32,000 nucleotides of DNA from Fibrobacter succinogenes subsp. succinogenes S85. GTDB taxonomy: Bacteria > Fibrobacterota > Fibrobacteria > Fibrobacterales > Fibrobacteraceae. Each line of letters opens with the position of its first letter. Within the stretch, counting starts at the first letter, position 1. The translations under genes and the position numbers were made by a program. Where the stretch lies: assembly GCF_000146505.1 (NCBI RefSeq), contig NC_017448.1:1680001-1712000 (forward strand), read 5' to 3'. Below are positions 13,246 through 29,415 of the stretch, one piece after another. The notes beneath the pieces are model-generated. The model saw nothing but the letters and a program-made list of their open reading frames with translations. It was not told the DNA's origin and did not search any database.

Positions 13246-13403
13246 TATCTACTCCGATAAAACATCTTGTATCAACAAGCACCAAGAATATACAAAAGTC
13301 TGCGGAAAAAAACTTTTAAAATGGTTTTGATTTCTTTTCATAAAGTCTTCATACGAAAAGCTTGCAAATAGTTATATTTCCTACTAAGGTTCAGGTTGCG
13401 AGA

Positions 13404-14573: not shown

Positions 14574-14611
14574 TCGGCAGAACTTAGTTGGCAGAGCTTA
14601 GAAATGCTTAA
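14574..14611. repeat. Tandem 14-mers TCGGCAGAACTTAG / TTGGCAGAGCTTAG followed by AATGCTTAA
   Basis: Two adjacent near-identical 14-mers (14574-14587 and 14588-14601), then AATGCTTAA (14603-14611). The same TTGGCAGAACTTAG ... AATGCTTAA unit recurs at 17057-17083. Confidence 0.7.
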
Positions 14612-14640
14612 AGAGAAAAGAGATGTTCTAAGTTCTAAAA

Positions 14641-15744
14641 TCACGGGATTCTCACGAATCGGGTGTTCGCAAGGATGAGTTCAAGCAGAATGAGGAGCGC
14701 ACCGACCAGAAGCCACGGGTAGAATTTTTCGGCATAGCGGGCGTAAGCAATCGTCTCAATTTCCGTTTTTTCGAGTTCATCGATTTCAGAGTAAATCTTT
14801 TCAAGTTCAGCCTTGTTTTCGGCACGGTAGAAACGTCCACCCGTCTTTGACGCAATCGCCTTGAGCACGTCCTCGTCAATGCCTTCCTCAGGCGTAATGT
14901 CGCGTTCGCCCCAGGAGATTTCACCAGTCCACGGGTTCTGCTGGAACGCAAGAATCTTGCCGGACTTTTTGCCGACACCGACAGTATAAACCTTCACGCC
15001 CAGGGACTTCGCCACCTCGGCAGCACGCACCGGCGGAACGACACTCGCATTGTCGCGGCCATCAGTCAAGAGAATCACCACGCGAGACTTGGCATCGGAC
15101 ATCTTGAGCCTGGCAAGCGCGTTCATCAAGCCATCGCCAATGGCGGTCCTGTTGTTCACAAGCGTATCGCGAGCAAGGTCGTCGCTTGCCTTCAAGATTT
15201 CAAGCAGGGAACCATAATCCATCGTGAGCGGACACTGCGTAAACGAGCGAGCGCCAAATGCCGAAAGGCCAATACGGTCGCTATGGCGCTTGCCAATAAA
15301 TTCGGCAATTACGTCCTGCGCGTAACCGAGACGGCTGTATTTCCAGTATTCGCCGCGTTTCAAGATTTTTTCGGCATTCATCACGCCAAGCTTCGCCTGT
15401 TCGGTACGGGTAAGCATGTCAAGCGTTCCCATAGAGCCCGAAACGTCAAGTGCAAGCATGATATCGACACCATCCGTCGAAGTGTATTCGACTTCCATCG
15501 CATTCTGCGGACGGGCAAGAGCCACCACAAAGCAAACGAGGGCAGCCAGGCGAAAAGCCGGAACAATATGCCTAAACCTTACACGACGGCTAGGAACCGC
15601 CTTCTTTGCAATGGCTAGCGCCGGGAACTTAATTGTACTCTTACGACGCTGCTGGCGGTAAACATAAAGCGCAACCAACAGCGGAACAAACAACAACAGC
15701 CAAAAGGCTTCGGGATTTTGAAAATGAAGGGCTCCAATATCCAT
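14641..15744 (-). CDS. VWA domain-containing membrane protein, BatA/BatB (aerotolerance) family
   Basis: N-terminal TM helices (AFWLLLFVPLLVALYVYRQQRRK; AFRLAALVCFVVALARPQ). MIDAS motif LALDVSGSMG, then ILLTDGRDN and VYTVGVG. C-terminal TM helix WLLVGALLILLELIL. Confidence 0.8.
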   Translation of the reverse strand: MDIGALHFQNPEAFWLLLFVPLLVALYVYRQQRRKSTIKFPALAIAKKAVPSRRVRFRHIVPAFRLAALVCFVVALARPQNAMEVEYTSTDGVDIMLALDVSGSMGTLDMLTRTEQAKLGVMNAEKILKRGEYWKYSRLGYAQDVIAEFIGKRHSDRIGLSAFGARSFTQCPLTMDYGSLLEILKASDDLARDTLVNNRTAIGDGLMNALARLKMSDAKSRVVILLTDGRDNASVVPPVRAAEVAKSLGVKVYTVGVGKKSGKILAFQQNPWTGEISWGERDITPEEGIDEDVLKAIASKTGGRFYRAENKAELEKIYSEIDELEKTEIETIAYARYAEKFYPWLLVGALLILLELILANTRFVRIP

Positions 15745-17688: not shown

Positions 17689-18702
17689 ATGAAGAAGATT
17701 TTTTCAATTGCCGCCATTATCCTCGTTTTAACCGCTGTTTTTGCGTATTTCCACGTAAATCAACGGTTGAGCGCCGTTTCACTCAACGAAAATACCGTCA
17801 TTTTGGAGATTCCAAAGGGCAGTTCCCCCACAAAAGTTTTACAAATTTTACACGAAAAAGAGGTCTGGACAGACGACCTGGCGTTCAATTTGTGGTGCAA
17901 ACTGAACAAACCGGCCCTAAAAGCGGGCTGGTACGAGGTCCCCGCCCACCAGTCGCTTGATGAACTCACCGAGCTGTTCGAAAGCGGCAAAAACGCCGTC
18001 CGCAAGGTGACGATTCCCGAAGGTCGAGCCTCCTGGGAAATCCCCGCCTACCTCCAGAAAAGTTTCCCTAACCTTGACACGGCCCGTTGGAACAAACTAG
18101 TCCAGGACCCGAAGTTCGCCCGATCGCTCGGCATCGAAGGAAACTCTCTTGAAGGCTACCTGTTGCCGGACACGTACCCGTTCGCCATCAATTCCGATGA
18201 AGAATCCATACTGCGACAGATGGTCGCCGCAAACTTCAAGGTACGCGACGAAATGAAGGCACGCAAAAGCCCCATGTGGGATAAGCTTAAAAACTGGCAC
18301 CGCGTGTTGACACTTGCAAGCGTGGTCGAAGAAGAAACGGGCATCCCGGACGAACGTCCGCTCATTGCAGGCGTGTTCCATAACAGATTGGACATTGGCA
18401 TGCCGCTCGGAGCAGACCCGACGGTGCGGTTCATCTTCAAGAACTTGACAGGTCCCATCTACAAGAGCCAGTTGAACAGCGACAGCCCCTACAACACCCG
18501 CAAGTTTCCGGGACTGATGCCCGGCCCGATTTCAAATCCGGGTCGCAAGGCTATTGAAGCAACGCTTTTCCCGGCAAAGACGAGCGCACTTTACTTTGTA
18601 GCAAAAGACGATGGTTCACACACGCATTTCTTCAGCACGAACCTCGCCGATCACAACAAGTACAAGGACGTCGCCGCCAAGAACCGCGGCGAAAAGAAGT
18701 AG
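17689..18702 (+). CDS. mltG: Endolytic peptidoglycan transglycosylase MltG (YceG-like)
   Basis: N-terminal TM anchor MKKIFSIAAIILVLTAVFAYF. YceG-family motifs are LKAGWYEV, VTIPEGRASWEI, LEGYLLPDTY, ASVVEEETG, IAGVFHNRL, LGADPTV, YNTRKFPGLMPGPISNPG and YFVAKDDGSHTHFFSTNLADHN. The track ORF's upstream 165 codons are antisense to the neighbouring gene and were trimmed. Confidence 0.9.
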   Translation: MKKIFSIAAIILVLTAVFAYFHVNQRLSAVSLNENTVILEIPKGSSPTKVLQILHEKEVWTDDLAFNLWCKLNKPALKAGWYEVPAHQSLDELTELFESGKNAVRKVTIPEGRASWEIPAYLQKSFPNLDTARWNKLVQDPKFARSLGIEGNSLEGYLLPDTYPFAINSDEESILRQMVAANFKVRDEMKARKSPMWDKLKNWHRVLTLASVVEEETGIPDERPLIAGVFHNRLDIGMPLGADPTVRFIFKNLTGPIYKSQLNSDSPYNTRKFPGLMPGPISNPGRKAIEATLFPAKTSALYFVAKDDGSHTHFFSTNLADHNKYKDVAAKNRGEKK

Positions 18703-18715
18703 CGGCGGAGCCGCA

Positions 18716-18821: not shown

Positions 18822-21086
18822 CTAAAACAGATTGTAGTCACCGATGCGGATAAAGTATCTGTAGTTTTTGAATTCTCTCAAATCACCAAACGTTTCCGTA
18901 TCAACAACGCGGTTAAGGCCTGCGTAAACAGTAAACGAACGGTACTTATAGCGGAGCGCCGGTTCAAACACAAACTTATTTGAATTCAGCTTTGCTGTTG
19001 CCTTGTCTTCAAAATCGTGGACATACGCAAACGAAAGCCATGCGCCAAAGCCATGACGGTGAACACCACCGTTTAAGCGCAACATCGCATAACCATGCGT
19101 TGAAAGTTCTGGATCTTGCCAGTCCCCGGACCACGGCGTTGCCGCCACATGCAGGCGATAACGGTCTTCCATCGCGGGATTGTCAAAATTCTTGGGGTAC
19201 GCCATGCTGCCACCATCACGATAAGCATCAAAGCCCATAGCCATGCCCATCGTTATCGAAGCATTCCTAGCCGGTGAATAGGAGAGCCTTCCATCAAGAG
19301 TGTAAATCCCGTGAATCGGGCCTCTCTGGTGGAACCCGACCCCAATCAAGTTCATGCCAAGGCTTGCATTTGCGGCATAGCCCTTTGTGGCAAACCAGGG
19401 GTCATCTTCGCCATTCAACAACGAATAGTGAACACTCTGCGTCACCGGACTAGTCTCATAATTACTACTCGTATTCACGACGACATCGTCAAAGAAGTCT
19501 TCTTCGGGAATGGCGCTCGGAGCAAGTTCAAACTCGCGACTGCCAAACAGGAACTTGACCTCGACTGACTGCATTTTATCAATCGCGTATTTTGCAGACA
19601 GGAAAAGATCGTTACGCTTTTCAAACTTGATACGGTTCTCTTCAGGCACATTATCCTTCTCGAACGTCTTCAAAAAACACAACTTCATCAAGTCATAGCC
19701 AAAGCTAAATTTCCAGCGACGGTTAATCAAGTTCGAAAGCTCCAAACGCGGACGGAATCCGTAAGACGACGTCCCATAAAAGCCAGCCAACTTAAAACTG
19801 ATTTCCATCTGGTTGACGTAATTGAGAGCCACTTCACCATAGGCGTTAGCACCAATCACGTTAGAACCAAAGCCGCCCACCGCTACATCGACAGTCGGGT
19901 GAACGCCCACATCAATCAGGAGATCGCCTTCAGGCTGCATATTGAACGAGATTGTATCGTAAGGAGCCTTCGCCGTAATTGAATAAGCAAAGTTTGATGG
20001 AGCCACAAAGCCCGTATCTTCGGGACTCCAGTAAGAAGCAACCGCCGAATGGTGTTCCGACGAAAGACTGTCAAAAACAGGATTGAAGGCGAACCAAGCT
20101 TCGGACTTTTGCTTGTCCGTGTATTCCCTACGTCCATCAACCAACGGAATAATCTCGCGCAAACGACCTTCCACTGCCGAGAATCCCGCCTGAATCATGG
20201 ACTTGCGGGACGTATCGCGAATGGAATGCGCCCTCACAAACACGCCCTGCACATCACCCAGCTTTGACAAGACGTTGTTCTTAAGTTGACGCGTTTCAAC
20301 ATTGCCGTCCAAATCGTAACGAACGGGATCCGGCACAACGATAAGCACCGCTTCTTGCGGGTTCTTGACCAGGGGCAAAGCCAAGTACGGACAAAGTTCA
20401 CCGGACTTTTCATTCCCTGAAAGCGGGAGCGATGCGACAATATCGGCATAAGACGGATTTTCAATCACGCTATCGCAAGTCTGGAGCGTAAAGGGGATAC
20501 GATAGGAACCACGCTGGCGGTAAAGAGACTCCTCAAAGCGGAGGCGCGAAAGCGAACGTTCAATGGAAGCGGTATCGGGGACAAGCGCATGCATACTGCG
20601 ATAGACATTCCCTGCCGAATCCGCATAGAACGAAAACCTTTGGCGAAGCGTCGGGATACCCTCTATCGATAGCGGAATATCAAAACCGCTATGCTCTGTT
20701 TTATCATGGATCGTATTCGCCCCAACGAACTCAACAATCGAAGGATCCATCATCAAGCGCTGGATATCGTCAATCGAGACACCGAGCGACCAAAGCGCAC
20801 CCATCCAGGCGCCCCACGAAGTGGCGACAATGGAATCCACGGGAATCTTGTATTCTTCCAAAGCGTACAAAGCGCCCAAATGGAACCATGGCGAACGCTC
20901 GCCACCGCCGAGATAAAGCACAGACTTGGTCTTCTTGGCCTGCAGTGAATCGGGAACAAGCTGCATAGCGCTCAAAAGCGTTTCATCAGCGGAATGTGCC
21001 GCCTGGGCAGGCGCCACATAAACAGCAGCAATCGCCACTGCCAAAAGGAGCGTTTTTTTAAGCCAGCCGTGCGGGGTTGGAAACAT
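18822..21086 (-). CDS. Patatin-like phospholipase domain protein with a C-terminal outer-membrane beta-barrel (PlpD / type Vd-like architecture)
   Basis: Signal peptide ...VYVAPAQA/AHS. Patatin oxyanion motif LYLGGGERS and nucleophile elbow ATSWG (a variant of GxSxG). The C-terminal ~350 aa show alternating beta-strand-like sequence rich in G/Y/F and end in ...IRIGDYNLF, with the terminal aromatic typical of OMPs. Confidence 0.7.
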   Translation of the reverse strand: MFPTPHGWLKKTLLLAVAIAAVYVAPAQAAHSADETLLSAMQLVPDSLQAKKTKSVLYLGGGERSPWFHLGALYALEEYKIPVDSIVATSWGAWMGALWSLGVSIDDIQRLMMDPSIVEFVGANTIHDKTEHSGFDIPLSIEGIPTLRQRFSFYADSAGNVYRSMHALVPDTASIERSLSRLRFEESLYRQRGSYRIPFTLQTCDSVIENPSYADIVASLPLSGNEKSGELCPYLALPLVKNPQEAVLIVVPDPVRYDLDGNVETRQLKNNVLSKLGDVQGVFVRAHSIRDTSRKSMIQAGFSAVEGRLREIIPLVDGRREYTDKQKSEAWFAFNPVFDSLSSEHHSAVASYWSPEDTGFVAPSNFAYSITAKAPYDTISFNMQPEGDLLIDVGVHPTVDVAVGGFGSNVIGANAYGEVALNYVNQMEISFKLAGFYGTSSYGFRPRLELSNLINRRWKFSFGYDLMKLCFLKTFEKDNVPEENRIKFEKRNDLFLSAKYAIDKMQSVEVKFLFGSREFELAPSAIPEEDFFDDVVVNTSSNYETSPVTQSVHYSLLNGEDDPWFATKGYAANASLGMNLIGVGFHQRGPIHGIYTLDGRLSYSPARNASITMGMAMGFDAYRDGGSMAYPKNFDNPAMEDRYRLHVAATPWSGDWQDPELSTHGYAMLRLNGGVHRHGFGAWLSFAYVHDFEDKATAKLNSNKFVFEPALRYKYRSFTVYAGLNRVVDTETFGDLREFKNYRYFIRIGDYNLF

Positions 21087-22065
21087 ACCTACCTGCCTCT
21101 TCGGCAGTCACATAGTTAGAGCGAACAAGTTCTGCCAAGCAATCGTCCATCAAGAGCATGCCTTCAGATGAAGAGGAAGCCATCACGGACGTGAGCTTAA
21201 ACTGTTCGCCGCTGCGAATGTGAGCAGCCACGTTTTGCGTGTTAAAAAGGATTTCCCAGGCCGAAACGGCGCCACCGCCTTCAGCTGCAGCGGGCAAGAG
21301 TCTCTGCACGACAACAGCCTTGAGAGATGCCGCAAGCATGGTACGGACAAGGTCGCGATTTTCGGGAGTAGCTGCAGAAAGGAGAGCATCGACAACGCCA
21401 ACGGCGTTACCCGCCGTCACGTTCATGACCACCAAGGCGCCCGATTCTGCAGCACGTAAAATGGAAATCAACGACGAGCCGTCAAAATCGCCAAGCCAGA
21501 AAAGGTCCGTTCCGCTACGGAGGCCCTGTTCCAGCTTTTCGGAGGTCGAGCCGACCGTATTCACAAGCTTTAAGCTTTCACCCGTTTTCACAGGCAGTTC
21601 ACGGCTTTCATCCAAATCGCAGAACCGCAAAATGCCAGAACTGCACAAAGCCGAAACGTAAGACAGCGCCGAGACCGTTTTTCCAGAGCACGCTGGCCCT
21701 GCAAAAATCACGAGACCGGAACTGAGACCGAGCAGGCTATCGAGAGCCGCAGGCGCGCCAAGAGATGTAAAATCCGGACATTCGGCCATGAGCGGGCGGA
21801 ATATCACCGCATTGCCAAGCGCTTCGCGGAAGTACTTCACGCGCCACTTGGTGTTCACCCAAGGACCACCGACAAACGTTCCTGACTCGCCATCAATCGC
21901 GCCTAAAAATTCAAGCAAAGAGCCGAACGGGAGTGCTGTAGATTCGGGGACCGCACAGACGCGACCTGCAAAGCGGACCGCCGAAGGTGCGCCCTCGGTC
22001 ACAATCAATTCGCTTGCCCCGATGTTCAAGGCGTATTCCAAAAGAGATTCAATTTCTGATGCCAT
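21058..22065 (-). CDS. PilT-family (type IV pilus retraction ATPase-like) protein with degenerate Walker B and His box
   Basis: It appears colinear with PilT by eye: GASELIVTEGAPSAVRFAG (PilT: GASDLHL..G.PP..R..G). Walker A is GPACSGKT. The Asp-box region is ILRFCDLDE (PilT: ILTIEDPIE). Walker B is DLFWLGDFDG (PilT: DIILVGEMRD). The His box is ESGALVVMNVTA (PilT: ETGHLVFGTLHT). Confidence 0.75.
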   Translation of the reverse strand: MASEIESLLEYALNIGASELIVTEGAPSAVRFAGRVCAVPESTALPFGSLLEFLGAIDGESGTFVGGPWVNTKWRVKYFREALGNAVIFRPLMAECPDFTSLGAPAALDSLLGLSSGLVIFAGPACSGKTVSALSYVSALCSSGILRFCDLDESRELPVKTGESLKLVNTVGSTSEKLEQGLRSGTDLFWLGDFDGSSLISILRAAESGALVVMNVTAGNAVGVVDALLSAATPENRDLVRTMLAASLKAVVVQRLLPAAAEGGGAVSAWEILFNTQNVAAHIRSGEQFKLTSVMASSSSEGMLLMDDCLAELVRSNYVTAEEAGRYVSNPARLA

Positions 22066-22076
22066 GATGAACCTCG

Positions 22077-23723
22077 CTAAACCTTGCGGTAAGACGCAAA
22101 ACGGCGGCTGTCGTTTGCACGTTTCCAGGCTTCATTGCCTTCGATGTAACCGGATTCTACGCACATCTGCAAAGAATCGTCGAGCGTAATGCCTTGGTCT
22201 TTCTGATTGCTAATCGCAGAGAGGATCTGCGACACATCGCACTTGCGGATCATGCCCGCAATCGTCGACGTGACTTTCATCGCTTCGGTTGCAAGCACAA
22301 GACCCTGGTTTTGCACAGCAGGAATCAAGTGCTGCACGATGACGCCCTTGAGTTGTTCAGCAAGCGAGCATGCAAAGGCGGCTCGGTTCTCGCTCGGTAC
22401 AGACATGAGGAGGCGCGAAAGAAGCGCGTTGATATTATTGCCGCTTGCGACGGCAAATACGAGAGCGCCCGCGTTCGAAGCCTGCATGAGCAGGGAAAGT
22501 TCCTCCATCGTTTCGAGATGGTCAAAGAGAATCACGTCGGCGCCGGTGCGGATGGCAAGTTCGATGCCAGCGGCACCGGAGCGCACATGCAAGCCAACTT
22601 CGCGCTGGGCGATGGAGCCGTTCGGATTCTGGAGCAAGCGTTCAATCGGCTTTTCGACCGTCTGGATGAACACCTGGCGATTCGCAGCGATGCACTCGGC
22701 AAAGGCGGTCATCGTCGTGGAGCGGCCGCTCGACGACGGGCCAGCAATGAGTACAAGCCCGCTATTGAGCGTTGCAAACTGCATGCTGAATTCGGGCAAG
22801 TAAAGATTCTCGAGTGCCACCGATTCCATCGGAATGATGCGAATAGAAATGCTCGGCGTGACGTCGTTCCACGTCACGGAAATGCGGGCACGACCAACAC
22901 CCGGGAGACCCATAGTCTTACTGAAATTGCGGCCGACCACAATCTTGTAGCCGTCTGCAAAACCTTCGGCCGCTTCGGCCAGGCGGTCCATCAAATGCGT
23001 TTTTTCAAGCACTTTCTCAGACGCAATAAAGAGCTTGCCGGACTGGCGCATGGTAATCTGGCGGTCGGCGTAAAGGTAAACGTCCGTGACGTTAAACTTG
23101 CGGGCGTAAGCGATGATTTTTGCAAGCGGCGTAATCGGGTGCAAGACATCGGGAGCTTCAACGGCTTCGCCTTCGCCGGTAGCAACGGCGAACTGCGACG
23201 GAAGTTCTTCGGTCGCAGTTTCTTCGGCGGGCGTTTCGCTTTCGACCGGAACTTGCACGCTCGCCATGCTCGTCGTTTCGAGGCCTTCAACCTTTTCGAT
23301 GACGACCGTCGAAGAAGAGGCTTCGCCGTAAAGGCTGCTGTTGCCTTCAATCTTTATGGCGGGTTCTTCTTCCGGCTGCGGAGCAGGCGCGGCTGAAACT
23401 GCAGCGGGTGCAGGTTGCGCGGGAGCAGTGGGATGAGCCGAGGCCGAAGACTGTGCCGGCGTTGATGCGGATGGCGCGGGGGCTGCAGACGAGGCTGCCG
23501 CGGGCTTTTCAGCAGGTTTTGAAGCGGGCTTCGCATTTTTCGCTTCAAGGTTCTTCACAAATGCAAGAACCTTATCGTACATGGACTGTTTCAAGATTCC
23601 CGCACGAACAAGAACCTGACCGATATCCATCGAGTCGGAGATTTCGCCCCAGTGGGCCTTGACCTGGTCCTCGGACACAACCTTGTTGTGTACAAGAACC
23701 TTTGCCATGTACTGATTTCTCAT
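22077..23723 (-). CDS. PilT/GspE-superfamily protein with all catalytic motifs degenerate, an N-terminal T2SSE_N/MshEN-like domain and a low-complexity linker
   Basis: The C-terminal ~350 aa are PilT-like. Walker A is GPSSSGRST (Lys to Arg). The Asp box is FIQTVEKPIE. Walker B is DVILFDHLET. The His box is NAGALVFAVASGNN. The N-terminus MAKVLVHNKVVSEDQVKAHWGEISDSMDIGQVLVRAGILKQSMYDKVLAFV resembles the GspE/MshE N-domain repeat. Residues ~61-190 are Ala/Pro/Ser/Thr/Glu-rich. The start ATG overlaps the permease stop (ATGA); Met6 (23708) is an alternative start. Confidence 0.75.
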   Translation of the reverse strand: MRNQYMAKVLVHNKVVSEDQVKAHWGEISDSMDIGQVLVRAGILKQSMYDKVLAFVKNLEAKNAKPASKPAEKPAAASSAAPAPSASTPAQSSASAHPTAPAQPAPAAVSAAPAPQPEEEPAIKIEGNSSLYGEASSSTVVIEKVEGLETTSMASVQVPVESETPAEETATEELPSQFAVATGEGEAVEAPDVLHPITPLAKIIAYARKFNVTDVYLYADRQITMRQSGKLFIASEKVLEKTHLMDRLAEAAEGFADGYKIVVGRNFSKTMGLPGVGRARISVTWNDVTPSISIRIIPMESVALENLYLPEFSMQFATLNSGLVLIAGPSSSGRSTTMTAFAECIAANRQVFIQTVEKPIERLLQNPNGSIAQREVGLHVRSGAAGIELAIRTGADVILFDHLETMEELSLLMQASNAGALVFAVASGNNINALLSRLLMSVPSENRAAFACSLAEQLKGVIVQHLIPAVQNQGLVLATEAMKVTSTIAGMIRKCDVSQILSAISNQKDQGITLDDSLQMCVESGYIEGNEAWKRANDSRRFASYRKV

Positions 23724-24529
23724 AAGAAATCCCTCCGGCTAAACCACCAACTTGCGATGGCCAAGAACACGCCGATATAACCAAGTGCATAGACGCTGTT
23801 CCAGAACACGTACATGTCCGGGAGCGCTACCCCATGCACCACATAGTTCGTCACGTTAAAGCGATAAAGTCCAGGGAATACGGCGTGAATCACGACCGCC
23901 GCCTTTTCAAGAATTGCAGAAGAAGTTCCCTGCAGTTCGCCCATGCGGCTTGCAAACTTGACCTGTTCCATAAGCTGGTCGCTCAAGTGGCCCGCAAAGT
24001 AAACGCCAAGCGTAAAGAGCGCAGAAAGCACCGTGCTACTGAAATTGCTGAACAGGAGTGCGACAGCAATCACGACTGCCATTTCACAGAAGATGAGGTA
24101 AATCGCCGTCAATAAGCTCAATGTCGGGCTAGAATTTGTAATCCACAGAATCGCATAATAGATTCCCGTGAGGAGCGTCAGGTGAACGGCAACAACCGCC
24201 AAAAGTCCAAAGTACTTGCCCACGATAAACGCGGCACGGCTAATAGGCTTTGACAAAAGCGTGAGCACTGTGCGCCGCTGGATTTCCTTTTGCACAAGGC
24301 TAATGCCCACAAATATGGAAATCAGAAGACCCGAAAGGCTCATCACCGAAAGCGTCGTAGACTTGATGACGTAAGCGCGGTCAAACACCGACCACTCGCC
24401 AAGCACAATGCTAAAAAGCGTAAGTGCAATCGCCAAAAAGTCAATGTTATAAAGAATCTTGTCGCGAATGGATTCGCGGAACGTATTGAGGGCAATAATG
24501 CCGATATGCTTAAGCGTCTGCACGGGCAA
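23720..24529 (-). CDS. ABC-2 type transporter permease (NosY/GldF-like, 6 TM)
   Basis: 269-aa polytopic membrane protein with a typical ABC-2 N-terminus (IALNTFRESIRDKILYN...) and the motif EIQRRTVLTLLSKPISRAAFIVGKY. It overlaps the ABC ATPase gene by 20 nt. Confidence 0.75.
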   Translation of the reverse strand: MPVQTLKHIGIIALNTFRESIRDKILYNIDFLAIALTLFSIVLGEWSVFDRAYVIKSTTLSVMSLSGLLISIFVGISLVQKEIQRRTVLTLLSKPISRAAFIVGKYFGLLAVVAVHLTLLTGIYYAILWITNSSPTLSLLTAIYLIFCEMAVVIAVALLFSNFSSTVLSALFTLGVYFAGHLSDQLMEQVKFASRMGELQGTSSAILEKAAVVIHAVFPGLYRFNVTNYVVHGVALPDMYVFWNSVYALGYIGVFLAIASWWFSRRDFL

Positions 24530-25445
24530 TTTCCTCCGTCAAAATATCTTCGAGACTCGGACGCTTGTGGTCCATCTTTTCTACGGCAATCCCATTCGAG
24601 AGACAGAAGCCGAGCAAACGATCGCGGGCGACATCGTCAGCGCAGATGTATTCTTGCGGGTGACCCGTTGCAGAAACACCGCGAGGCAAGTCCGCTTCCA
24701 AAATCGCCTGGCGCGTCCGCACATGATATTCCACACCGCAGGATTCCGTGATTTCATCGACGGTCCCTTCGCGGACAATCTTGCCATCGACAATCATCGC
24801 CACGCGGTGGCTGATGCTTTCCACGTCGCTCAATAAATGGCTCGAATAGAAAATCGTCACGCCATCGCGGTTGAGCTGCTGGATAGCCTCGCGCACGTCA
24901 CGACGACCCATCGGGTCCAGGCCGCTCATCGGTTCGTCGAGAATCAAAAGCTTCGGCTTGCCAAGAATCGCCTGGGCAATCCCCACGCGCTGCATCATGC
25001 CCTTGGAATACGAACGCAAGCGGCGGTCGATCCAGTCCTTGTTTGCGTGCAAAAGTTCAAGCGCCCAGCCAATACGGGATTCGAGTTCCGCGCCCTTGAG
25101 GCCCACAAGCTTTCCGTAAAAACGCAAAAGTTCACGACCCGAGAGATAATCGTAAAAATACGGCTGTTCCGGAGAATAACCGATATACTGGCGGCTCTTC
25201 ACATCGCGCGGGCTGATGCCGTTTACAAGCACCTTGCCCGAATCAAAATTCAAAAGTCCTGTCAGAACCTTGATAGTGGTGGACTTGCCCGCCCCGTTAG
25301 GTCCAATAAATCCATACACCTTGCCCGCTTCGACATTGAAGCTCACGTCCTTGAGCGCAAGCTTCGGCTTCATCGTAAAGCCACTGCGATACGTCTTGTG
25401 CAGGTGTTCAATTTCAATCATCAAATCACTCATACACGCAATCAC
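24510..25445 (-). CDS. ABC transporter ATP-binding protein (ABC-2/GldA/NatA-like, with C-terminal accessory domain)
   Basis: All motifs are intact: Walker A GPNGAGKST, Q-loop YSPEQ, signature YSKGMMQRV, Walker B LLILDEPMSGLD and H-loop YSSHLL. The start is either GTG at 25445 (GTGA overlap with the upstream stop) or ATG at 25433 (MSDLMIEIEHL). Confidence 0.9.
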   Translation of the reverse strand: MIACMSDLMIEIEHLHKTYRSGFTMKPKLALKDVSFNVEAGKVYGFIGPNGAGKSTTIKVLTGLLNFDSGKVLVNGISPRDVKSRQYIGYSPEQPYFYDYLSGRELLRFYGKLVGLKGAELESRIGWALELLHANKDWIDRRLRSYSKGMMQRVGIAQAILGKPKLLILDEPMSGLDPMGRRDVREAIQQLNRDGVTIFYSSHLLSDVESISHRVAMIVDGKIVREGTVDEITESCGVEYHVRTRQAILEADLPRGVSATGHPQEYICADDVARDRLLGFCLSNGIAVEKMDHKRPSLEDILTEEIARADA

Positions 25446-25759
25446 TTGTTAGAATTTTCGTCGGAATCGCTAGCCGCATCTTCGCTAGACACATCATCGG
25501 AATCGCTGAGACCAGCCGCCTTGTAGGATTCTTCAATTTCTCGACGGCGACGGTCCGCTTTCTCTTTCTTGTTGATGAAAAAGTAAATGACGGCACCGAC
25601 CAAATACACGACAATGCCCGAATAGAAAATCGGGTTGATAGATTTTCCCTCAAGACCGGGGAAAACGTTCAAAATAATCTCGTGACCAAAAAGCGAAAGC
25701 AGCACCAAGATAAAACCGAGCGCCCTAAGCACATGAGTGACAATCACTATTTTTTGCAT
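25442..25759 (-). CDS. Small membrane protein (2 TM helices, charged/acidic Ser/Asp-rich cytoplasmic tail); first gene of the operon
   Basis: The 105-aa product has hydrophobic segments LRALGFILVLLSLFG and IFYSGIVVYLVGAVIYFFI, then KKEKADRRRREIEE...SDSDDVSSEDAASDSDENSNK. An AGAGG SD-like element lies upstream of the ATG at 25759. Confidence 0.6.
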   Translation of the reverse strand: MQKIVIVTHVLRALGFILVLLSLFGHEIILNVFPGLEGKSINPIFYSGIVVYLVGAVIYFFINKKEKADRRRREIEESYKAAGLSDSDDVSSEDAASDSDENSNK

Positions 25760-25880: not shown

Positions 25881-25913
25881 AAAAAAGGCCTTGCGGTGGG
25901 ATGCCACAGGGCC
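25881..25913 (-). terminator. Rho-independent terminator after the 174-aa lipoprotein gene, insulating it from the six-gene operon
   Basis: An 11-bp stem (25887-25897 pairs with 25903-25913, one mismatch and two G-U pairs), a 5-nt loop, then U6 on the minus strand (A-run 25881-25886). A second hairpin, TGCCTGC-TCGGGG-GCAGGCA, sits at 25953-25972. Confidence 0.75.
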
Positions 25914-25987: not shown

Positions 25988-26512
25988 CTATTTTACTTTC
26001 ACGCAGCGGACGGAGGCGGCGATGGTCTTGTTGTAATGCTCGTACGTTACTTTGTCCTGTACGCGGACCATCACAGCGCGGGATTCGTCGAATGCATCAG
26101 CAGTCCAGAAGCTTGCACTCACGTTTTCGTCGGCGAACTTGCCATCGTAATAGCGGAAGCCATCCTTACCGATGTTGAGAGCCTTGAAATCAGCCTTTTC
26201 GAAGTCAGCCTGTTTAGGGAGTTCCCAGCCTGTGGGGCATGCGTCATTGGCGGATTTCCAGTCATAGAGGCGGCCATACTTTTTGCAGTTGTCGAGGTTA
26301 TTGCCGTAGCAGTAACTGGAATCAAAATTCAGAAGGTTGGCGTTTTCAGCCATCCACACGCGGCCACCCGTTTCGACGGTGGAATAGGTTTGGCCTTGGC
26401 ATTTGAGCGTCTTGGCGGATTCATCGTAATGACAGTTTTCAACTTTTTCGCATGCAGTAAATGCAATGGCGGCGACAAAAAGAGCCAATACGGCAACGAA
26501 CTTGAACTTCAT
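25988..26512 (-). CDS. Lipoprotein consisting of a Fibrobacter succinogenes major paralogous (FISUMP, TIGR02145-type) domain
   Basis: Lipobox AFTAC. Domain hallmarks are GRVWMAENANL, YGRLYDW..A..ACPTGWELP and the C-terminal SVRCVKVK. Confidence 0.85.
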   Translation of the reverse strand: MKFKFVAVLALFVAAIAFTACEKVENCHYDESAKTLKCQGQTYSTVETGGRVWMAENANLLNFDSSYCYGNNLDNCKKYGRLYDWKSANDACPTGWELPKQADFEKADFKALNIGKDGFRYYDGKFADENVSASFWTADAFDESRAVMVRVQDKVTYEHYNKTIAASVRCVKVK

Positions 26513-26663: not shown

Positions 26664-27419
26664 CTAGCCTTTCACGTGAATTGCGGCGGCGAATTCTTTG
26701 AGAAGAGCCGGGTCATTGACTTTTTCCCAAAGGGTGCCGGTGACAATGATCTGGGCGCCAGCGGCAACGCGGACAGCCGCTGTCTGCGGGTCCTTGATTC
26801 CACCACCGGTGATAATCGTCATTTCGGTCGACTTGCGGGTGTAAGCGATATGTTCGACCGGCACAGGTTCTTCTGCACCGCTACCCGCTTCGAGGTAAAC
26901 GTAGCGCATGCCCATGAGTTCTGCAGCGATGGAGTTCACCATGCTGAGCTTCGGCTTGTTGGCTGGCACCGGCATCGTGTTACTGATGTATTCGACCGTC
27001 GTACGCTTGCCACTGTTGATGAGCTGGTAAGCCGTCGGGATGGCTTCCATGTTGAGCGCACGCACGAGGGCGCCACCGCGCACCTGTTCGTCAATGAGGT
27101 AGTTCGGATTGCGGCCGCTCACGAGCGTCATGAAAAGCATGGCATCAAAGCCAGGAACGACCTGAGAAGCGCCACCCGGGAAAAGAATCACCGGCAAGTC
27201 GACAGCGGCTTTGAGGGCAGCGACCTGTTTCGGGAGCGTGAAATTGCCGAGATAAGAACCTCCGACCAAAAGCAAGTCCGCGCCGTTTTCAGCCGCCATC
27301 GAGCCTGCCTTGACAAAGGCGGCCTCGTCCGAAGTATCCGGATCCAAGAGCACAGCAAAAAGTGCACCGCGCTTTTCGATATCAGCATTCAAACGGAGTT
27401 CAGTCTTACCAGGTTTCAT
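26664..27419 (-). CDS. Geranylgeranylglyceryl phosphate synthase family prenyltransferase (GGGPS / PcrB family)
   Basis: TIM-barrel GGGPS/PcrB signatures: FAVLLDPD, ADLLLVGGS, PVILFPGG, LVSGRNPNYLI, YVYLEAGSGA and ITGGGIKDPQTAAVRVAAGAQIIVTG. The 251-aa length fits the family. Confidence 0.85.
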   Translation of the reverse strand: MKPGKTELRLNADIEKRGALFAVLLDPDTSDEAAFVKAGSMAAENGADLLLVGGSYLGNFTLPKQVAALKAAVDLPVILFPGGASQVVPGFDAMLFMTLVSGRNPNYLIDEQVRGGALVRALNMEAIPTAYQLINSGKRTTVEYISNTMPVPANKPKLSMVNSIAAELMGMRYVYLEAGSGAEEPVPVEHIAYTRKSTEMTIITGGGIKDPQTAAVRVAAGAQIIVTGTLWEKVNDPALLKEFAAAIHVKG

Positions 27420-27665: not shown

Positions 27666-29415
27666 TTAGTTTTTGACGCAGCGAACACTTATGCGTACAT
27701 CCGGATCATCAGACACATTGTAATCCATCGGCTTCCAGTTATCCATTGTAAGTACCCATACCGACCACGCACCTTTGTATTCCTGATCTAAAAATGTCAT
27801 ATACTCCACCGTAATATCGCCAAATCCAATCTGGTGCAAATACTGTGAGGCGTACCATCCAAAGCCCTCATAAACCTCAAATTGTTCCCTGCAATCCTGA
27901 GAATAACATTCACCACTTTCTTTTTCGGCAAAGTAAAATACTCGAGACCATTCCTTACGAGTCGGGATATGCCACCCATCCGGGCAAATACCCTGGAAAT
28001 GCCCATTATCCATTACAATCGAATCGCCACCAATGACGTCAGAAACAGCGTATCCCGCATAAGTTTCCCAATACGAGGAATCACGCGAATTGATGTATTC
28101 TTCAAATTCACCATCGCGGCCCTGATTTTTAACAAAGAAAGCCGAATCAATTTCCAAAACAGGCTGAACAAGCGAATCGCTATACCTCAGGTTTTCAGCA
28201 AACCAGGTATAAGTTGAACCCTCGAAACTGTACGTCACCGTATTATAGACTTTTCCATCGCGAGCATCCGTCATCGTCCCTTTCGTAACAGAGAAAGCCT
28301 CTTCAATTTCTTCCGGGGTATTCTTATCCAAAATAGTCCACGCGCCCGAAACACACGTAATATCCTTAAACAGCTTTGACTCGCACGGAAGTTCTACAGT
28401 ACGCCCTTCCGATTCCGCAGTACACGTCCCAAGTTCATAAAGGGTTGCCAAGAAACCATCCAAGAATGCGGGATTCCCTGGTCCGGATTTCATACGGACT
28501 CGGAACGAATACGCATTATCAGCGAAAAAGCCCCTTATCGAATCTACCGACGTAAACGTCCCTGACGACCCAAACACATCAGCAAGAATAATCGGTGAAT
28601 TTGTCCGTCTCCAATAAGACGTAAACGCATTCATATAAAGCATCGCAGTTTCATATTTAGAATATGCGGGATACCTACCTTTATCGAAATAAAAACTACC
28701 ATTAGGCAAGCCAAAAGCACTGAGAATTTCACGATCGGCCCTGTTGTTTTGCAGCCGCGAAGTCCATTCCTTGACGGACAAGATAACGCAAGCGAGCGGC
28801 CTCCAAATAAGTCATGATGTTGATATCAACGCCACCAGAATCCCGCACATCAACGATTATGCTATACGTTATCGGATACTCTCCCCAAATTTCATCATAG
28901 GCATCAAAAGACCATGTTCCGTCCCACGTCCAAGAACCATCTTCAACGTAAGGTGCGATTTCAAGCATGACATACGGGCTGTTCAGCGAAACGCTGTCAA
29001 AACGGAATTCGCCGTCATAACCGTTGCACTTGGCAAAATAAAACACGCCTGTCGTATCCAAAGTCACCGAATCCAATTCAGCCATTCTTATAATCGTACC
29101 TTCTTTCGCGGCTACACTCCACGTGTTCATGGCAGAACTATCAACGACTTCAGTACTTTCAACATTACGAGCTAGCATTTTTGCACCACCCGTCACGTTT
29201 ATATTCGGAAGCAAAGCTTCAACAGAGGGTTCCTCGGAAGAGCCTCCTAAATAGCTCGTTTCTTCAGTGGAACCGCCCATAGAGCAGCCTACAACCATCA
29301 CAGCGAAGAACGTAGCGATAGCAAAGTTCAAGATTATACTCAAGCCAGCAATCAGGAACAATCGCAAGTTTGTCTTTTTACAGACAAGTTGTCCGCAATT
29401 TTTTGAGTAATTCAT
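27666..29415 (-). pseudogene. FISUMP-domain lipoprotein gene interrupted by a 1-nt frameshift (fragments 28729-29415 and 27666-28781)
   Basis: The upstream fragment carries a lipoprotein signal (VMVVGCS) and ends ...RQGMDFAAAKQQGRS*. The downstream fragment has only a TTG 'start' and continues ...ADREILSAFG.... Joined, the two fragments are colinear with the intact paralog at 30555->32000 (...KFGMSFAEAKKQASKEVLESFG...). Removing one G from the GGG run (+ strand CCC, 28739-28741) restores the frame. The C-terminal part has CPDGWHIPT and SVRCVKN. Confidence 0.8.

What the first reader, a model, noticed from the sequence alone, without database searches (positions are those of the whole stretch)
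21058..23723. Two adjacent PilT-family paralogs have mutated catalytic signatures, one completely
Seen in the 548-aa protein:
- Walker A GPSSSGRST (invariant Lys replaced by Arg)
- Asp box TVEKPIE (canonical TIEDPIE)
- Walker B DVILFDHLET (canonical ILVGEMRD; the Gly-Glu pair is lost)
- His box AGALVFAVASGNN (both His lost)

Seen in the 335-aa protein:
- Walker A GPACSGKT (retained)
- Walker B LFWLGDFDG (Glu to Asp)
- His box SGALVVMNVTA (both His lost)
- Asp box RFCDLDE

Known: in PilT/PilB/GspE hexameric ATPases these motifs bind and hydrolyse ATP, and the His box is required for function.

Inference: these are pseudo-enzymes, or at best very weak ATPases. They have been retained as a pair and may form a mixed ring that binds but does not turn over nucleotide.
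Basis: partly seen in the sequence, partly recalled or inferred. Interest (0 to 1): 0.65.

Follow-up and report, generated by a model that had tools for sequence, protein, structure and literature searches.

The report
Conserved degenerate PilT-like pair in Fibrobacter
Two neighbouring Fibrobacter genes encode relatives of the pilus-retraction motor PilT that have lost the residues needed to hydrolyse ATP yet are strictly conserved, inside a six-gene envelope cassette whose counterparts in other lineages still look catalytically intact.

Summary
Window 22077-23723(-) (548 aa) and 21058-22065(-) (335 aa) both have the PilT fold.

- **548 aa:** Walker A Lys->Arg, Asp-box Asp->Lys, Walker B Gly-Glu->Asp-His, both His-box His lost.
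- **335 aa:** Lys kept, catalytic Glu->Asp, both His lost.

The degenerate state is fixed in 33 of 33 species-level orthologs under strong purifying selection (dN/dS about 0.09). The non-catalytic pocket residues stay invariant: P-loop glycines, Mg-Thr, Asp-box Glu and the Arg fingers. The site looks remodelled, not decayed.

- The 548-aa protein starts with an MshEN/GSPII-type four-helix domain, itself off the c-di-GMP consensus, followed by a disordered linker.
- "Long then short PilT" is a bicistronic module found in several lineages, never next to pilus genes in the contexts I checked. In most of them both partners keep Lys and Glu.
- In Fibrobacter the pair sits in a conserved cassette: small TM protein, intact ABC ATPase, ABC-2 permease, long, short, PlpD-like outer-membrane patatin.

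Best reading: a non-motor, nucleotide-binding PilT-like complex derived from an active ancestor. The mixed-ring idea is untested. I rate it a new variant of a known kind, of moderate to high interest.

The parts
22077..23723 (-). Long PilT-like protein, 548 aa (stop codon included): MshEN-like N-domain, disordered linker, degenerate PilT core
   Evidence: ORF. PF00437 49.6 bits. TIGR01420 187 bits, below the 319.1 cutoff. AF2 model core matches PilT4 6ojx with TM 0.93, rmsd 2.1 A.
23535..23723 (-). Residues 1-63 of the 548-aa protein: four-helix MshEN/GSPII-type domain with non-consensus c-di-GMP motif positions
   Evidence: The profile of this region (A1, which also includes long-protein N-termini closer to the consensus) hits T. 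thermophilus PilF GSPII domains (E 2e-15), V. cholerae MshE 5htl (4e-7) and PilB N-termini. AF2 gives four helices at pLDDT 86-93. Against the motif (R/K/L)LGxx..G....L...L..Q of PMC11731258, motif position 1 is Y5 and D33, G3->A7, G10->K14, Q24->I28 and V56.
23154..23534 (-). Residues 64-190: Ala/Ser/Glu/Pro-rich disordered linker of variable length
   Evidence: pLDDT below 50 for residues 65-174. Composition A30 S18 E18 P17 of 127 residues. Ortholog lengths range 530-575 aa.
22713..22742 (-). 548-aa Walker A, GPSSSGRSTT (R334 in place of Lys)
   Evidence: R334 in 33/33 and T336 in 33/33 orthologs.
22641..22661 (-). 548-aa Asp box, TVEKPIE (E357 and E361 kept, Asp->Lys358)
   Evidence: E357 and E361 in 33/33; position 358 is K or R in 32/33.
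22509..22538 (-). 548-aa Walker B, DVILFDHLET (Gly-Glu -> D401-H402; reads as a classical hhhhD)
   Evidence: D401 in 33/33, H402 in 31/33.
22434..22472 (-). 548-aa His box, AGALVFAVASGNN (H222->A420, H229->S427)
21058..22065 (-). Short PilT-like protein, 335 aa (stop codon included)
   Evidence: ORF. PF00437 42.1 bits. TIGR01420 134 bits, below cutoff. AF2 model matches PilT structures at E about 1e-26. An 11-nt gap with a GAGG element separates it from the 548-aa stop codon.
21670..21699 (-). 335-aa Walker A, GPACSGKTVS (Lys129 kept)
   Evidence: K129 and T130 in 33/33.
21598..21618 (-). 335-aa Asp-box equivalent, DLDESRE (only E156 invariant)
21478..21507 (-). 335-aa Walker B, DLFWLGDFDG (Glu->D193; Asn in some orthologs)
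21406..21444 (-). 335-aa His box, SGALVVMNVTAGN (H->A210, H->T217)
24510..25445 (-). ABC transporter ATPase, 311 aa, all catalytic motifs intact (same cassette)
   Evidence: PF00005 100.8 bits. Walker A GPNGAGKST, signature YSKGMMQR, Walker B LLILDEP, H-loop SSHLL. Syntenic in every Fibrobacter locus whose contig reaches that far upstream, plus L034 and L040. 52% identical to the L040 copy.
23720..24529 (-). ABC-2 family permease, 269 aa; its stop overlaps the 548-aa start (ATGA)
   Evidence: PF12679. Conserved synteny. 49% identical to the L040 copy.
25442..25759 (-). Small membrane protein, 105 aa, first gene of the cassette; overlaps the ABC ATPase start
   Evidence: ORF. Two hydrophobic segments. 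A small ORF sits at this position in L034, L040 and the P0253 contig.
18822..21086 (-). 754-aa secreted patatin-like protein with a probable outer-membrane C-terminal part; its start overlaps the 335-aa gene by 29 nt
   Evidence: PF01734. Best PDB match is PlpD 5fqu. Signal-peptide-like N-terminus and C-terminal ...YNLF. A patatin gene follows the pair in L034 and L038, and the L040 818-aa protein shares the N-terminal region.

Best explanation
The two ORFs are the Fibrobacter version of a two-gene module found in several lineages. The first gene encodes a 'long' subunit: an MshEN/GSPII-like four-helix N-domain, a disordered linker and a PilT core. It is followed directly by a 'short' PilT-core subunit.

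In most lineages both subunits keep the Walker A Lys and the catalytic Glu. In the genus Fibrobacter and its nearest relatives both have lost the hydrolytic residues. They keep the P-loop backbone, the Mg-coordinating Thr, the Asp-box Glu residues and the arginine fingers.

I therefore read them as non-motor, nucleotide-binding pseudo-ATPases. They would still assemble into PilT-type ring(s), either one mixed ring or two docked rings, and act as a scaffold or nucleotide-state sensor rather than a force generator.

In Fibrobacter they are co-transcribed with, and most likely work with, an intact ABC ATPase, an ABC-2 permease, a small membrane protein and a PlpD-like outer-membrane patatin. That would make an envelope (lipid or surface-remodelling or export) cassette in which the ABC ATPase supplies the energy.

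Shown: homology, fold, substitutions, their fixation, purifying selection, synteny, and relatives that keep the Lys and Glu.
Inferred: loss of hydrolysis, retained ligand binding, complex formation, functional coupling to the ABC and patatin genes.

Sub-claim confidences:
- Non-motor pseudo-ATPase status: about 0.75 (long) and 0.65 (short).
- The two act together as a complex: about 0.65.
- They function with the ABC/patatin cassette rather than with type IV pili: about 0.5.
For: - Motif positions are fixed by alignment to solved PilT structures and to PaPilT.
- Both have the PilT fold.
- The degenerate residues are fixed: R334 33/33, D401 33/33, H402 31/33; in the short protein D193 30/33, A210 30/33, T217 32/33.
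- The non-catalytic pocket residues are invariant: T336, E357, E361, R278, R280, R295 in the long protein; K129, T130, E156, G192, R75 in the short.
- dN/dS is 0.093 and 0.085, close to the ABC genes at 0.066-0.075.
- The degenerate state persists down to 33-44% identity (P0248, P0253).
- The long-then-short order held in all ten further contexts examined beyond the Fibrobacter loci.
- The stop and start are 11 nt apart with a GAGG element.
- The two proteins diverge almost 1:1 across species.
- The cassette with ABC, ABC-2 and a patatin or large downstream protein is conserved in 31 Fibrobacter loci, L034, the P0253 contig and L040/L041.
- Relatives of the long type keep K, E, E and the first His in 113 of 113, and the short partners are near-canonical. 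Those relatives pass the TIGR01420 cutoff (354-420 bits) while the Fibrobacter-lineage proteins do not (126-187 bits).
- The ABC ATPase motifs are intact.
- Precedent: PilU is a PilT-dependent retraction ATPase (title of PMC6762196), and PilT bridges PilU to the machine (section heading of bioRxiv 10.1101/2025.10.30.685630). From my own knowledge of PMC6762196, not re-read here, catalytically dead PilT still supports PilU-driven retraction.
- From established knowledge, not tested here: Walker A K->R and loss of the Walker B Glu generally abolish hydrolysis in P-loop NTPases while often sparing binding, and PilT E204, H222 and H229 mutants are non-functional (Chiang et al. 2008).
Against: - No biochemical or expression data exist for these proteins.
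- The long subunit's Walker B now reads as a classical hhhhD (VILFD) with an invariant Asp and a nearby His. The short subunit keeps Lys plus an Asp at the catalytic position. Slow or non-canonical hydrolysis therefore cannot be excluded.
- The ABC genes are absent next to the pair in several lineages (L036-L039, L042, L043), so coupling to the ABC transporter is at best lineage-specific.
- Co-transcription is inferred only from overlaps and short gaps. Promoter and terminator scans were no better than chance.
- No multimer modelling was possible, so complex formation is untested.
Confidence: 0.55

Rival explanations
1. They are still working ATPases with a rewired active site. In the long subunit, Arg in the P-loop plus the classical hhhhD Walker B Asp401 and His402 would do the chemistry. 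In the short subunit, Lys129 plus Asp193 would. The pair would then remain a slow motor.
For: The pocket is remodelled rather than eroded. R334, T336, E357, E361, D401 and the Arg fingers are invariant, and K358 replaces D164 consistently. Another K->R lineage (L036) carries a perfect hhhhDE Walker B in both partners. The short subunit retains Lys, Thr and an acidic residue at the catalytic position.
Against: Both His-box histidines are gone in both proteins. H402 is not conserved outside the genus: it is Ser, Gly or Tyr in P0242-P0249. The short subunit's catalytic position is Asn in many orthologs. From general knowledge, K->R in Walker A normally abolishes turnover. Scores against the PilT/PilU model are less than 60% of the cutoff.
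Confidence: 0.17
2. They regulate the canonical type IV pilus machine of Fibrobacter. Dead PilT look-alikes would occupy the PilC platform or cap PilT or PilB. That would keep the adhesive pili extended on cellulose in a non-motile organism.
For: F. succinogenes has a full T4P gene set with one PilB and three genes called PilT by KEGG, and its pilins are implicated in cellulose adhesion (PMC4704652). In M. xanthus, deleting the possibly homologous MXAN_6706 gives a partial S-motility defect (PMC13584747). Dead PilT can still dock on the machine (my recollection of PMC6762196, listed but not read here).
Against: No T4P gene lies within the 32-kb window or next to the pair in any of the contexts examined. 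The conserved neighbours are instead ABC, ABC-2 and patatin genes. The AIRNLIRE motif that PilT needs for retraction in vivo (my own knowledge, Aukema et al. 2005) is degenerate: TIAGMIRK and NVAAHIRS.
Confidence: 0.15
3. Architecture rival to the first reader's mixed ring: each protein forms its own homohexamer and the two rings dock on each other, as PilT and PilU do. The long subunit's N-domain and linker would serve as a tether.
For: PilT and PilU, the best-studied adjacent PilT paralogs, are homohexamers that coordinate, with PilT bridging PilU to the machine (PMC6821130 title and abstract; bioRxiv 10.1101/2025.10.30.685630). The two window proteins are only about 28% identical to each other.
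Against: Tandem double-PilT fusion proteins exist, showing that two different PilT-type domains can share one assembly. They are not clear orthologs of the long and short families, though. Nothing here tests either architecture.
Confidence: 0.3
4. They are decaying relics with no function.
For: Loss of nearly all the catalytic signature residues. Scores are far below the family cutoff.
Against: Both reading frames are intact in 33 species-level genomes, with dN/dS about 0.09, invariant pocket residues and conserved synteny down to 33% identity.
Confidence: 0.02

Closest known systems
PilT / PilU type IVa pilus retraction ATPases (TIGR01420; P. aeruginosa, V. cholerae, G. metallireducens PilT4)
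   Same: Same two-domain fold: the 548-aa core matches PilT4 with TM 0.93, and the 335-aa model matches at E about 1e-26. Best sequence matches in the PDB and NCBIfam. Two adjacent paralogs, as with pilT-pilU. In that system PilU depends on PilT (title of PMC6762196), which bridges it to the machine. From my own knowledge, a catalytically dead PilT still works as that adaptor.
   Different: Below the family score cutoff (187 and 134 bits against 319). The Walker A Lys (long subunit), the catalytic Glu and both His-box His are lost, and the AIRNLIRE motif is degenerate. An N-terminal MshEN-like domain and a disordered linker are present. No pilus genes lie nearby.
M. xanthus MXAN_6705 / MXAN_6706, and possibly Geobacter mshE-pilT3 (GSU0435-0436)
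   Same: Adjacent PilT paralogs conserved across an order. The first gene has a longer N-terminus. They lie outside the pil cluster (PMC13584747; PMC5065972). The layout matches the long/short module seen in L036-L043.
   Different: All four motifs are reported intact in the Myxococcus proteins. I could not verify homology to the window proteins by sequence here. No ABC or patatin neighbours are reported.
MshEN / GSPII c-di-GMP-binding domains of MshE, PilB and PilF
   Same: The N-terminal 60 residues form a four-helix module of two tandem ~24-residue motifs. The profile hits PilF, MshE 5htl and PilB.
   Different: Key consensus positions are replaced: position 1 is Tyr and Asp, Gly3->Ala, Gly10->Lys, and the terminal Gln->Ile and Val. 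The MshEN C-terminal subdomain is absent. The domain is fused to a PilT-type core, not a PilB-type core.
PlpD-type (type Vd) patatin autotransporters, for the downstream gene
   Same: The best PDB match of the 754-aa protein's N-terminal region is the PlpD patatin domain. The nucleophile Ser is kept. Signal peptide and C-terminal Phe are present.
   Different: Only about 60 residues match. No POTRA or Omp85 domain is detected by Pfam. GxSxG reads ATSWG.
Degenerate nucleotide sites in other ATPase assemblies (heterodimeric ABC exporters, CFTR site 1, Pex1/Pex6 D1 rings)
   Same: A functional analogy only: non-hydrolysing nucleotide sites kept under selection as structural or allosteric elements next to an active ATPase (papers listed).
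   Different: Unrelated folds and assemblies. In the window, both ring subunits are degenerate and the active ATPase would be a separate ABC protein.

Membership tests
T2SSE / PilT-VirB11 secretion ATPase superfamily (PF00437) | Score above the Pfam gathering threshold | tested here: met
   49.6 and 42.1 bits against 24.9.
PilT/PilU family type 4a pilus ATPase (TIGR01420) | Whole-protein score above the curated cutoff (319.1 bits) | tested here: not met
   186.9 bits (548 aa) and 133.8 bits (335 aa). The long and short relatives with intact Lys and Glu score 354-420 bits.
PilT/PilU family type 4a pilus ATPase (TIGR01420) | Two-domain PilT fold (N-terminal PAS-like domain plus RecA-like C-terminal domain) | tested here: met
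   Foldseek: 548-aa core against 6ojx, TM 0.93, rmsd 2.1 A, E 1.5e-31. 335-aa model against PilT4 and PaPilT, E about 1e-26, TM 0.64-0.71.
PilT/PilU family type 4a pilus ATPase (TIGR01420) | Walker A GxxGxGK[ST] with the invariant Lys | tested here: not met
   The 548-aa protein has R334 in 33/33 orthologs. The 335-aa protein does meet this feature (K129 in 33/33).
PilT/PilU family type 4a pilus ATPase (TIGR01420) | Atypical Walker B with the catalytic Glu (PaPilT E204) | tested here: not met
   D401-H402 in the 548-aa protein; G192-D193 (Asp or Asn) in the 335-aa protein.
PilT/PilU family type 4a pilus ATPase (TIGR01420) | Asp box (TIEDPIE) | tested here: inconclusive
   548-aa protein: both Glu kept, Asp->Lys or Arg. 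335-aa protein: only the last Glu (E156) is invariant.
PilT/PilU family type 4a pilus ATPase (TIGR01420) | His box with two His (PaPilT H222, H229) | tested here: not met
   A420 and S427; A210 and T217.
PilT/PilU family type 4a pilus ATPase (TIGR01420) | AIRNLIRE motif of retraction PilT | tested here: not met
   TIAGMIRK and NVAAHIRS.
PilT/PilU family type 4a pilus ATPase (TIGR01420) | Genomic or functional link to type IV pilus assembly genes | tested here: not met
   No pilus gene among the ORFs of 150 aa or more in the 32-kb window, nor next to the pair in the other contexts.
PilT/PilU family type 4a pilus ATPase (TIGR01420) | Hexamer formation and ATP hydrolysis | not testable with these tools
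   Needs purified protein or multimer modelling.
MshEN / GSPII c-di-GMP receptor domain | Four-helix bundle made of two tandem ~24-residue motifs | tested here: met
   Profile A1 hits PilF (2e-15), MshE 5htl (4e-7) and PilB. AF2 gives helices 2-12, 18-27, 34-40 and 46-63 at pLDDT 86-93. Pfam alone gave no hit.
MshEN / GSPII c-di-GMP receptor domain | Consensus (R/K/L)LGxx[LVI][LVI]xxG[LVI][LVI]xxxxLxxxLxxQ in both motifs | tested here: not met
   Motif I is Y-M-A...K14...I28. Motif II is D-I-G...G42...V56. These residues are conserved as such in 32-33 of 33 orthologs.
MshEN / GSPII c-di-GMP receptor domain | C-terminal alpha/beta subdomain | tested here: not met
   Residues 65-174 are predicted disordered.
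MshEN / GSPII c-di-GMP receptor domain | c-di-GMP binding | not testable with these tools
   Needs ITC or DRaCALA.
Long/short PilT-paralog module (defined here) | A long subunit with an MshEN-like N-domain, followed directly on the same strand by a short PilT-core subunit | tested here: met
   Window; 31 Fibrobacter loci; L034-L043 and the P0253 contig. N-domain identity to long relatives is 25-52%.
PlpD-type patatin autotransporter (downstream gene) | Patatin domain with a Ser-Asp dyad, plus POTRA and a 16-strand barrel | tested here: inconclusive
   The patatin N-terminal region matches (PF01734; PlpD 5fqu E 2e-4) and the Ser is kept. No POTRA or Omp85 hit was found, and the structure was not modelled.
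Anti-phage defence systems (PADLOC) | Match to any defence-system model beyond a generic ABC ATPase | tested here: not met
   No hits for either PilT-like protein, the permease, the small protein or the patatin.

The most novel reading that the evidence does not exclude
The long/short PilT pair is the core of a previously unrecognised, pilus-independent envelope machine. A PilT-family ring assembly, with an MshEN-type sensor domain, would work with an ABC-2 exporter and a PlpD-like outer-membrane phospholipase. In Fibrobacter the ring has evolved from a motor into a non-hydrolysing nucleotide sensor or scaffold that gates or organises the ABC-driven process, for example outer-membrane lipid remodelling, vesicle formation or surface-adhesin display on cellulose.
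Probability: 0.3. Interest if true: 0.78.

Novelty: new variant of a known kind. Interest (0 to 1): 0.6.

Why it matters
PilT-family hexamers are regarded as obligate ATP-driven motors. A naturally dead pair under strong purifying selection would be, to my knowledge, the first clear pseudo-ATPase case in this superfamily. It comes with a built-in evolutionary series from relatives that keep Lys and Glu to fully degenerate ones.

It also flags three wider points:
- The three "PilT" genes counted for F. succinogenes in comparative genomics (PMC4704652) probably include this pair, which are not retraction motors.
- An orphan "MshEN-PilT plus PilT" module occurs in Fibrobacterota and Omnitrophota contexts, with long-type homologs named in Acidobacteriota and a possible counterpart in Myxococcota. 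It has no assigned function.
- In a major rumen cellulose degrader, this module is wired to an ABC-2 exporter and an outer-membrane patatin. That gives a concrete handle on envelope or adhesion biology that remains poorly understood.

Tried and rejected
- **Pfam on the N-terminal 70 and 194 residues:** nothing meaningful. The MshEN relationship only appeared with a family profile searched against the PDB.
- **Neighbour-joining tree of the core domains:** it resolved the long and short clades that keep Lys and Glu, but put all the degenerate sequences together on long branches. That is probably long-branch attraction, so I base orthology on synteny and the N-domain instead.
- **Tandem double-PilT fusions as Rosetta-stone evidence for a long-short complex:** rejected. 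Their halves do not group with the long and short families.
- **Gliding-motility GldA/GldF assignment for the ABC genes:** rejected. GldA scores 181 bits against a 402-bit cutoff, and the permease has no GldF hit.
- **Defence-system assignment:** rejected.
- **Pseudogene or relic:** rejected by dN/dS.
- **Promoter and terminator scan:** counts no better than shuffled sequence. The only suggestive sites are terminator-like hairpins at 18702-18714 and 25892-25908 on the minus strand, flanking the cassette.
- **Look-up of the Acanthopleuribacter pedis homolog's context:** failed.
- **Literature searches** for degenerate or pseudo-enzyme PilT, and for Fibrobacter plus patatin or PilT expression: nothing relevant.
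- **tRNA and Rfam scans of the window:** empty.

Full report
**1. Observation**

The window contains two adjacent minus-strand ORFs at exactly the reported coordinates: 22077-23723 (548 aa) and 21058-22065 (335 aa). Both match Pfam T2SSE above threshold. Their best NCBIfam match is the PilT/PilU model TIGR01420, but far below its cutoff: 186.9 and 133.8 bits against 319.1.

I recalled the P. aeruginosa sequence from memory; it reproduces the published K136, E163, E204, H222 and H229 numbering.

| PaPilT residue | 548-aa protein | 335-aa protein |
|---|---|---|
| K136 (Walker A) | R334 | K129 (kept) |
| E163 (Asp box) | E357 (kept) | D152 |
| D164 (Asp box) | K358 | E153 (variable) |
| E167 (Asp box) | E361 (kept) | E156 (kept) |
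| G203-E204 (Walker B) | D401-H402 | G192-D193 |
| H222 (His box) | A420 | A210 |
| H229 (His box) | S427 | T217 |

The only correction concerns the 335-aa Asp box. It aligns as DLDESRE, not RFCDLDE.

AlphaFold2 models of both proteins have the PilT fold. The 548-aa core superposes on G. metallireducens PilT4 with TM 0.93 and rmsd 2.1 A. The 335-aa model matches PilT structures at E about 1e-26.

**2. Is it more than chance, and is it maintained?**

The window comes from Fibrobacter succinogenes. The exact 548-aa protein lies on a 3.84-Mb contig, and Fib_succ_major domains are nearby.

- Across about 120 protein clusters for each protein the degenerate motifs are conserved.
- In 33 species-level orthologs taken from GTDB representative genomes and one metagenome locus, the long protein's R334, T336, E357, E361, D401 and the three arginine-finger positions (R278, R280, R295) are invariant. 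H402 is present in 31 of 33.
- In the short protein K129, T130, E156, G192 and R75 are invariant. D193 is present in 30 of 33, A210 in 30 and T217 in 32.
- Nei-Gojobori dN/dS is 0.093 (long) and 0.085 (short), against 0.066 and 0.075 for the neighbouring ABC genes and 0.111 for the patatin gene.
- Among the 150 nearest non-orthologous PilT-like domains, 142 keep Lys and 140 keep Glu204. Only two lack Lys, Glu and both His together.

The pattern is therefore a rare, fixed state under selection. It is a remodelled pocket, not erosion.

**3.

(a) *N-terminal domain.* The first ~63 residues of the 548-aa protein form a confident four-helix module (pLDDT 86-93). It is followed by a disordered Ala/Ser/Glu/Pro-rich linker (residues 65-174, pLDDT below 50). 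A profile of this N-terminal region, built from 28 long PilT-like proteins, hits the GSPII domains of T. thermophilus PilF (E 2e-15), V. cholerae MshE (5htl, 4e-7) and PilB N-termini. So it is an MshEN/GSPII-type domain.

Measured against the published c-di-GMP motif (PMC11731258), the key positions are replaced and conserved as such:
- Motif position 1 is Tyr5 in motif I and Asp33 in motif II.
- Gly3 is Ala7 and Gly10 is Lys14.
- The terminal Gln is Ile28 in motif I and Val56 in motif II.
- The MshEN C-terminal subdomain is missing.

Canonical c-di-GMP binding is therefore doubtful.

(b) *Cassette.* The pair sits in a conserved, tightly packed, same-strand cassette:
- small membrane protein (25442-25759)
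- ABC ATPase (24510-25445), with all catalytic motifs intact
- ABC-2 permease (23720-24529), whose stop overlaps the long gene's start
- long PilT-like gene
- 11-nt gap with a GAGG element
- short PilT-like gene
- 754-aa patatin-like protein (18822-21086), which overlaps the short gene by 29 nt

The patatin-like protein has a signal peptide, a C-terminal Phe, and PlpD as its best PDB match. This order is identical in 31 Fibrobacter species loci.

**4. Relatives elsewhere**

An exhaustive search of 1.84 billion representatives, combined with motif tabulation, shows an orthologous clade (P0241-P0249) that keeps the degenerate state down to 42% identity. Context look-ups gave the following.

| Locus or protein | Identity to 548-aa core | Context | Motif state |
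|---|---|---|---|
| L034 (P0248) | 44% | Same six-gene cassette | Both degenerate |
| P0253 contig | 33% | Same cassette, Fib_succ_major gene nearby | Long degenerate |
| L040/L041 (P0266/P0391) | about 31% | Same cassette | Long keeps Lys, Glu, first His (GCGK, SELRD, TGH..TMNT); short near-canonical |
| L038 | about 33% | Long, short, patatin; no ABC | Lys and Glu kept |
| L037 | about 32% | Pair alone | Lys and Glu kept |
| L039 | about 28% | Pair alone | Lys and Glu kept |
| L042 (Fibrobacteres MAG) | not measured | Pair alone | Lys and Glu kept |
| L043 (Omnitrophica MAG) | not measured | Pair alone | Lys and Glu kept |
| L036 | about 32% | Pair beside a histidine kinase | Both partners K->R |
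| L035 | about 31% | Pair | Long keeps Lys but has lost Glu and His; short has Lys->Leu |

For L040, the ABC ATPase is 52% identical to the window's copy and the permease 49%. The N-terminal region of the downstream 818-aa protein is 43% identical over 56 residues.

All 113 relatives of the long type retrieved have Lys, both Glu and the first His, with Asn at the second His position. Their named sources are Fibrobacteres/Fibrobacteria MAGs, Acidobacteriota (including Acanthopleuribacter pedis) and Omnitrophica. These long and short proteins pass the TIGR01420 cutoff at 354-420 bits. L034 (178 and 126 bits) and L036 (285 and 276 bits) do not.

By outgroup comparison the state with Lys and Glu is ancestral. 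The Fibrobacter-lineage degeneracy is derived, and L036 is an independent case.

**5. How it most likely works**

From established knowledge, not tested here:
- Walker A Lys->Arg and loss of the Walker B catalytic Glu abolish hydrolysis in P-loop NTPases, while often sparing nucleotide binding.
- PilT E204, H222 and H229 are required in vivo (Chiang et al. 2008).

PilT-type motors also need sequential hydrolysis around the ring. The window shows invariant P-loop glycines, Mg-Thr, Asp-box Glu and Arg fingers, together with lost catalytic residues and strong purifying selection. The best reading is a nucleotide-binding, non-motor PilT-like assembly.

The two proteins almost certainly act together:
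- They are adjacent in every context examined.
- The 11-nt junction with a Shine-Dalgarno-like element suggests translational coupling.
- They diverge almost 1:1 across species.

The PilT-PilU precedent favours docked rings (PMC6821130). It also shows that one PilT paralog can bridge a second to the membrane machine. From my own knowledge of PMC6762196 (listed, not re-read here), this holds even when that PilT is catalytically dead.

In Fibrobacter the only intact ATPase in the operon is the ABC protein. I infer that the PilT-like assembly has become a scaffold or sensor for an ABC-2 plus outer-membrane patatin envelope process. This last step is the weakest, because several lineages carry the pair without ABC genes.

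**6. Rivals**

- **Rewired active site.** The long subunit's Walker B now reads as a classical hhhhD, and the short subunit keeps Lys plus Asp. This cannot be excluded without enzymology.
- **Regulator of the canonical pilus machine.** This is plausible biologically: F. succinogenes is non-motile, uses pilins for cellulose adhesion, and KEGG counts three PilT genes. But the pair is not linked to pilus genes in any context I checked, and the AIRNLIRE motif is degenerate.
- **Decay.** Rejected by dN/dS.

**7. Comparison with the known, and novelty**

The closest families are PilT/PilU, but membership fails on score, the Walker A Lys (long subunit), the catalytic Glu, the His box, AIRNLIRE and genomic context. 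The N-domain resembles MshEN/GSPII at fold level only.

The M. xanthus pair MXAN_6705 (long N-terminus) and MXAN_6706 is conserved across Myxococcales, has all motifs intact, and deleting MXAN_6706 gives a partial motility defect. The Geobacter mshE-pilT3 arrangement is similar. Either may be the same module, but I could not verify this by sequence.

I found no paper describing naturally degenerate PilT-family proteins, or this cassette. Databases label the window's proteins PilT, T2SS/T4P/T4SS ATPase or TadA.

I rate it a new variant of a known kind, with interest 0.6. The degenerate pair is a solid, conserved oddity with a clear evolutionary series and testable predictions. Its function, and that of the whole module, is still inferred.

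Noticed in passing
L037-L040 and proteins P0404-P0514 (relatives of P0391): Even the catalytically intact pairs are asymmetric in the His box. The long family has Asn at the second His position, and Ser before the catalytic Glu, in nearly all of its 113 relatives. The short partners have Ile or Met at the first His position (MG[IM]LVFGTLHT). Each partner lacks a different histidine.
   Followed up: partly
Proteins P0250-P0252, P0255, P0257-P0260, P0262, P0267, P0319 (metagenome representatives): These are tandem fusions of two PilT-like domains, 700-1000 aa long. Some have a degenerate K->R N-terminal half and a canonical C-terminal half (P0259, P0262). They do not group with the long and short families.
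   Followed up: partly
L036:8001-10420: This is an independent lineage in which both partners have Walker A Lys->Arg but a perfect classical hhhhDE Walker B (VVAVDELEA and VVVVDELGD). The long partner's MshEN motif is closer to consensus. The pair sits directly downstream of a 7TM-PAS histidine kinase.
   Followed up: partly
window 18822-21086 (-): The 754-aa patatin-like protein has a variant lipase motif, ATSWG instead of GxSxG, and GGGERS at the oxyanion-hole position. Only about 60 residues match patatin or PlpD. The large C-terminal part has no family hit but ends in ...YNLF, like an outer-membrane barrel.
   Followed up: partly
window 12217-15744: Two BatA/VWA (aerotolerance-operon-like) genes on the minus strand flank a plus-strand GGDEF diguanylate cyclase gene (13362-14573), about 7.5 kb from the MshEN-like domain protein.
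   Followed up: no
window 26664-27419 (-): This is a PcrB-family gene (geranylgeranylglyceryl / heptaprenylglyceryl phosphate synthase-like) in a Fibrobacter genome.
   Followed up: no
window 10393-11913 (-), 9288-10379 (-), 28729-29415 (-): An M16 peptidase homolog matched only the 'inactive' C-terminal domain model. The two other ORFs, of 363 and 228 aa, have no Pfam hit.
   Followed up: no
window 25988-26512, 27666-28781, 30555-31925 (all -) and 29425-30255 (-): Three Fib_succ_major-domain paralogs and a DUF4423 gene are clustered just upstream of the cassette.
   Followed up: no
window 18702-18714 (-) and 25892-25908 (-): Terminator-like hairpins lie just outside both ends of the six-gene cassette. 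That fits a single transcription unit, but the number of such sites in the region is no higher than in shuffled sequence.
   Followed up: partly
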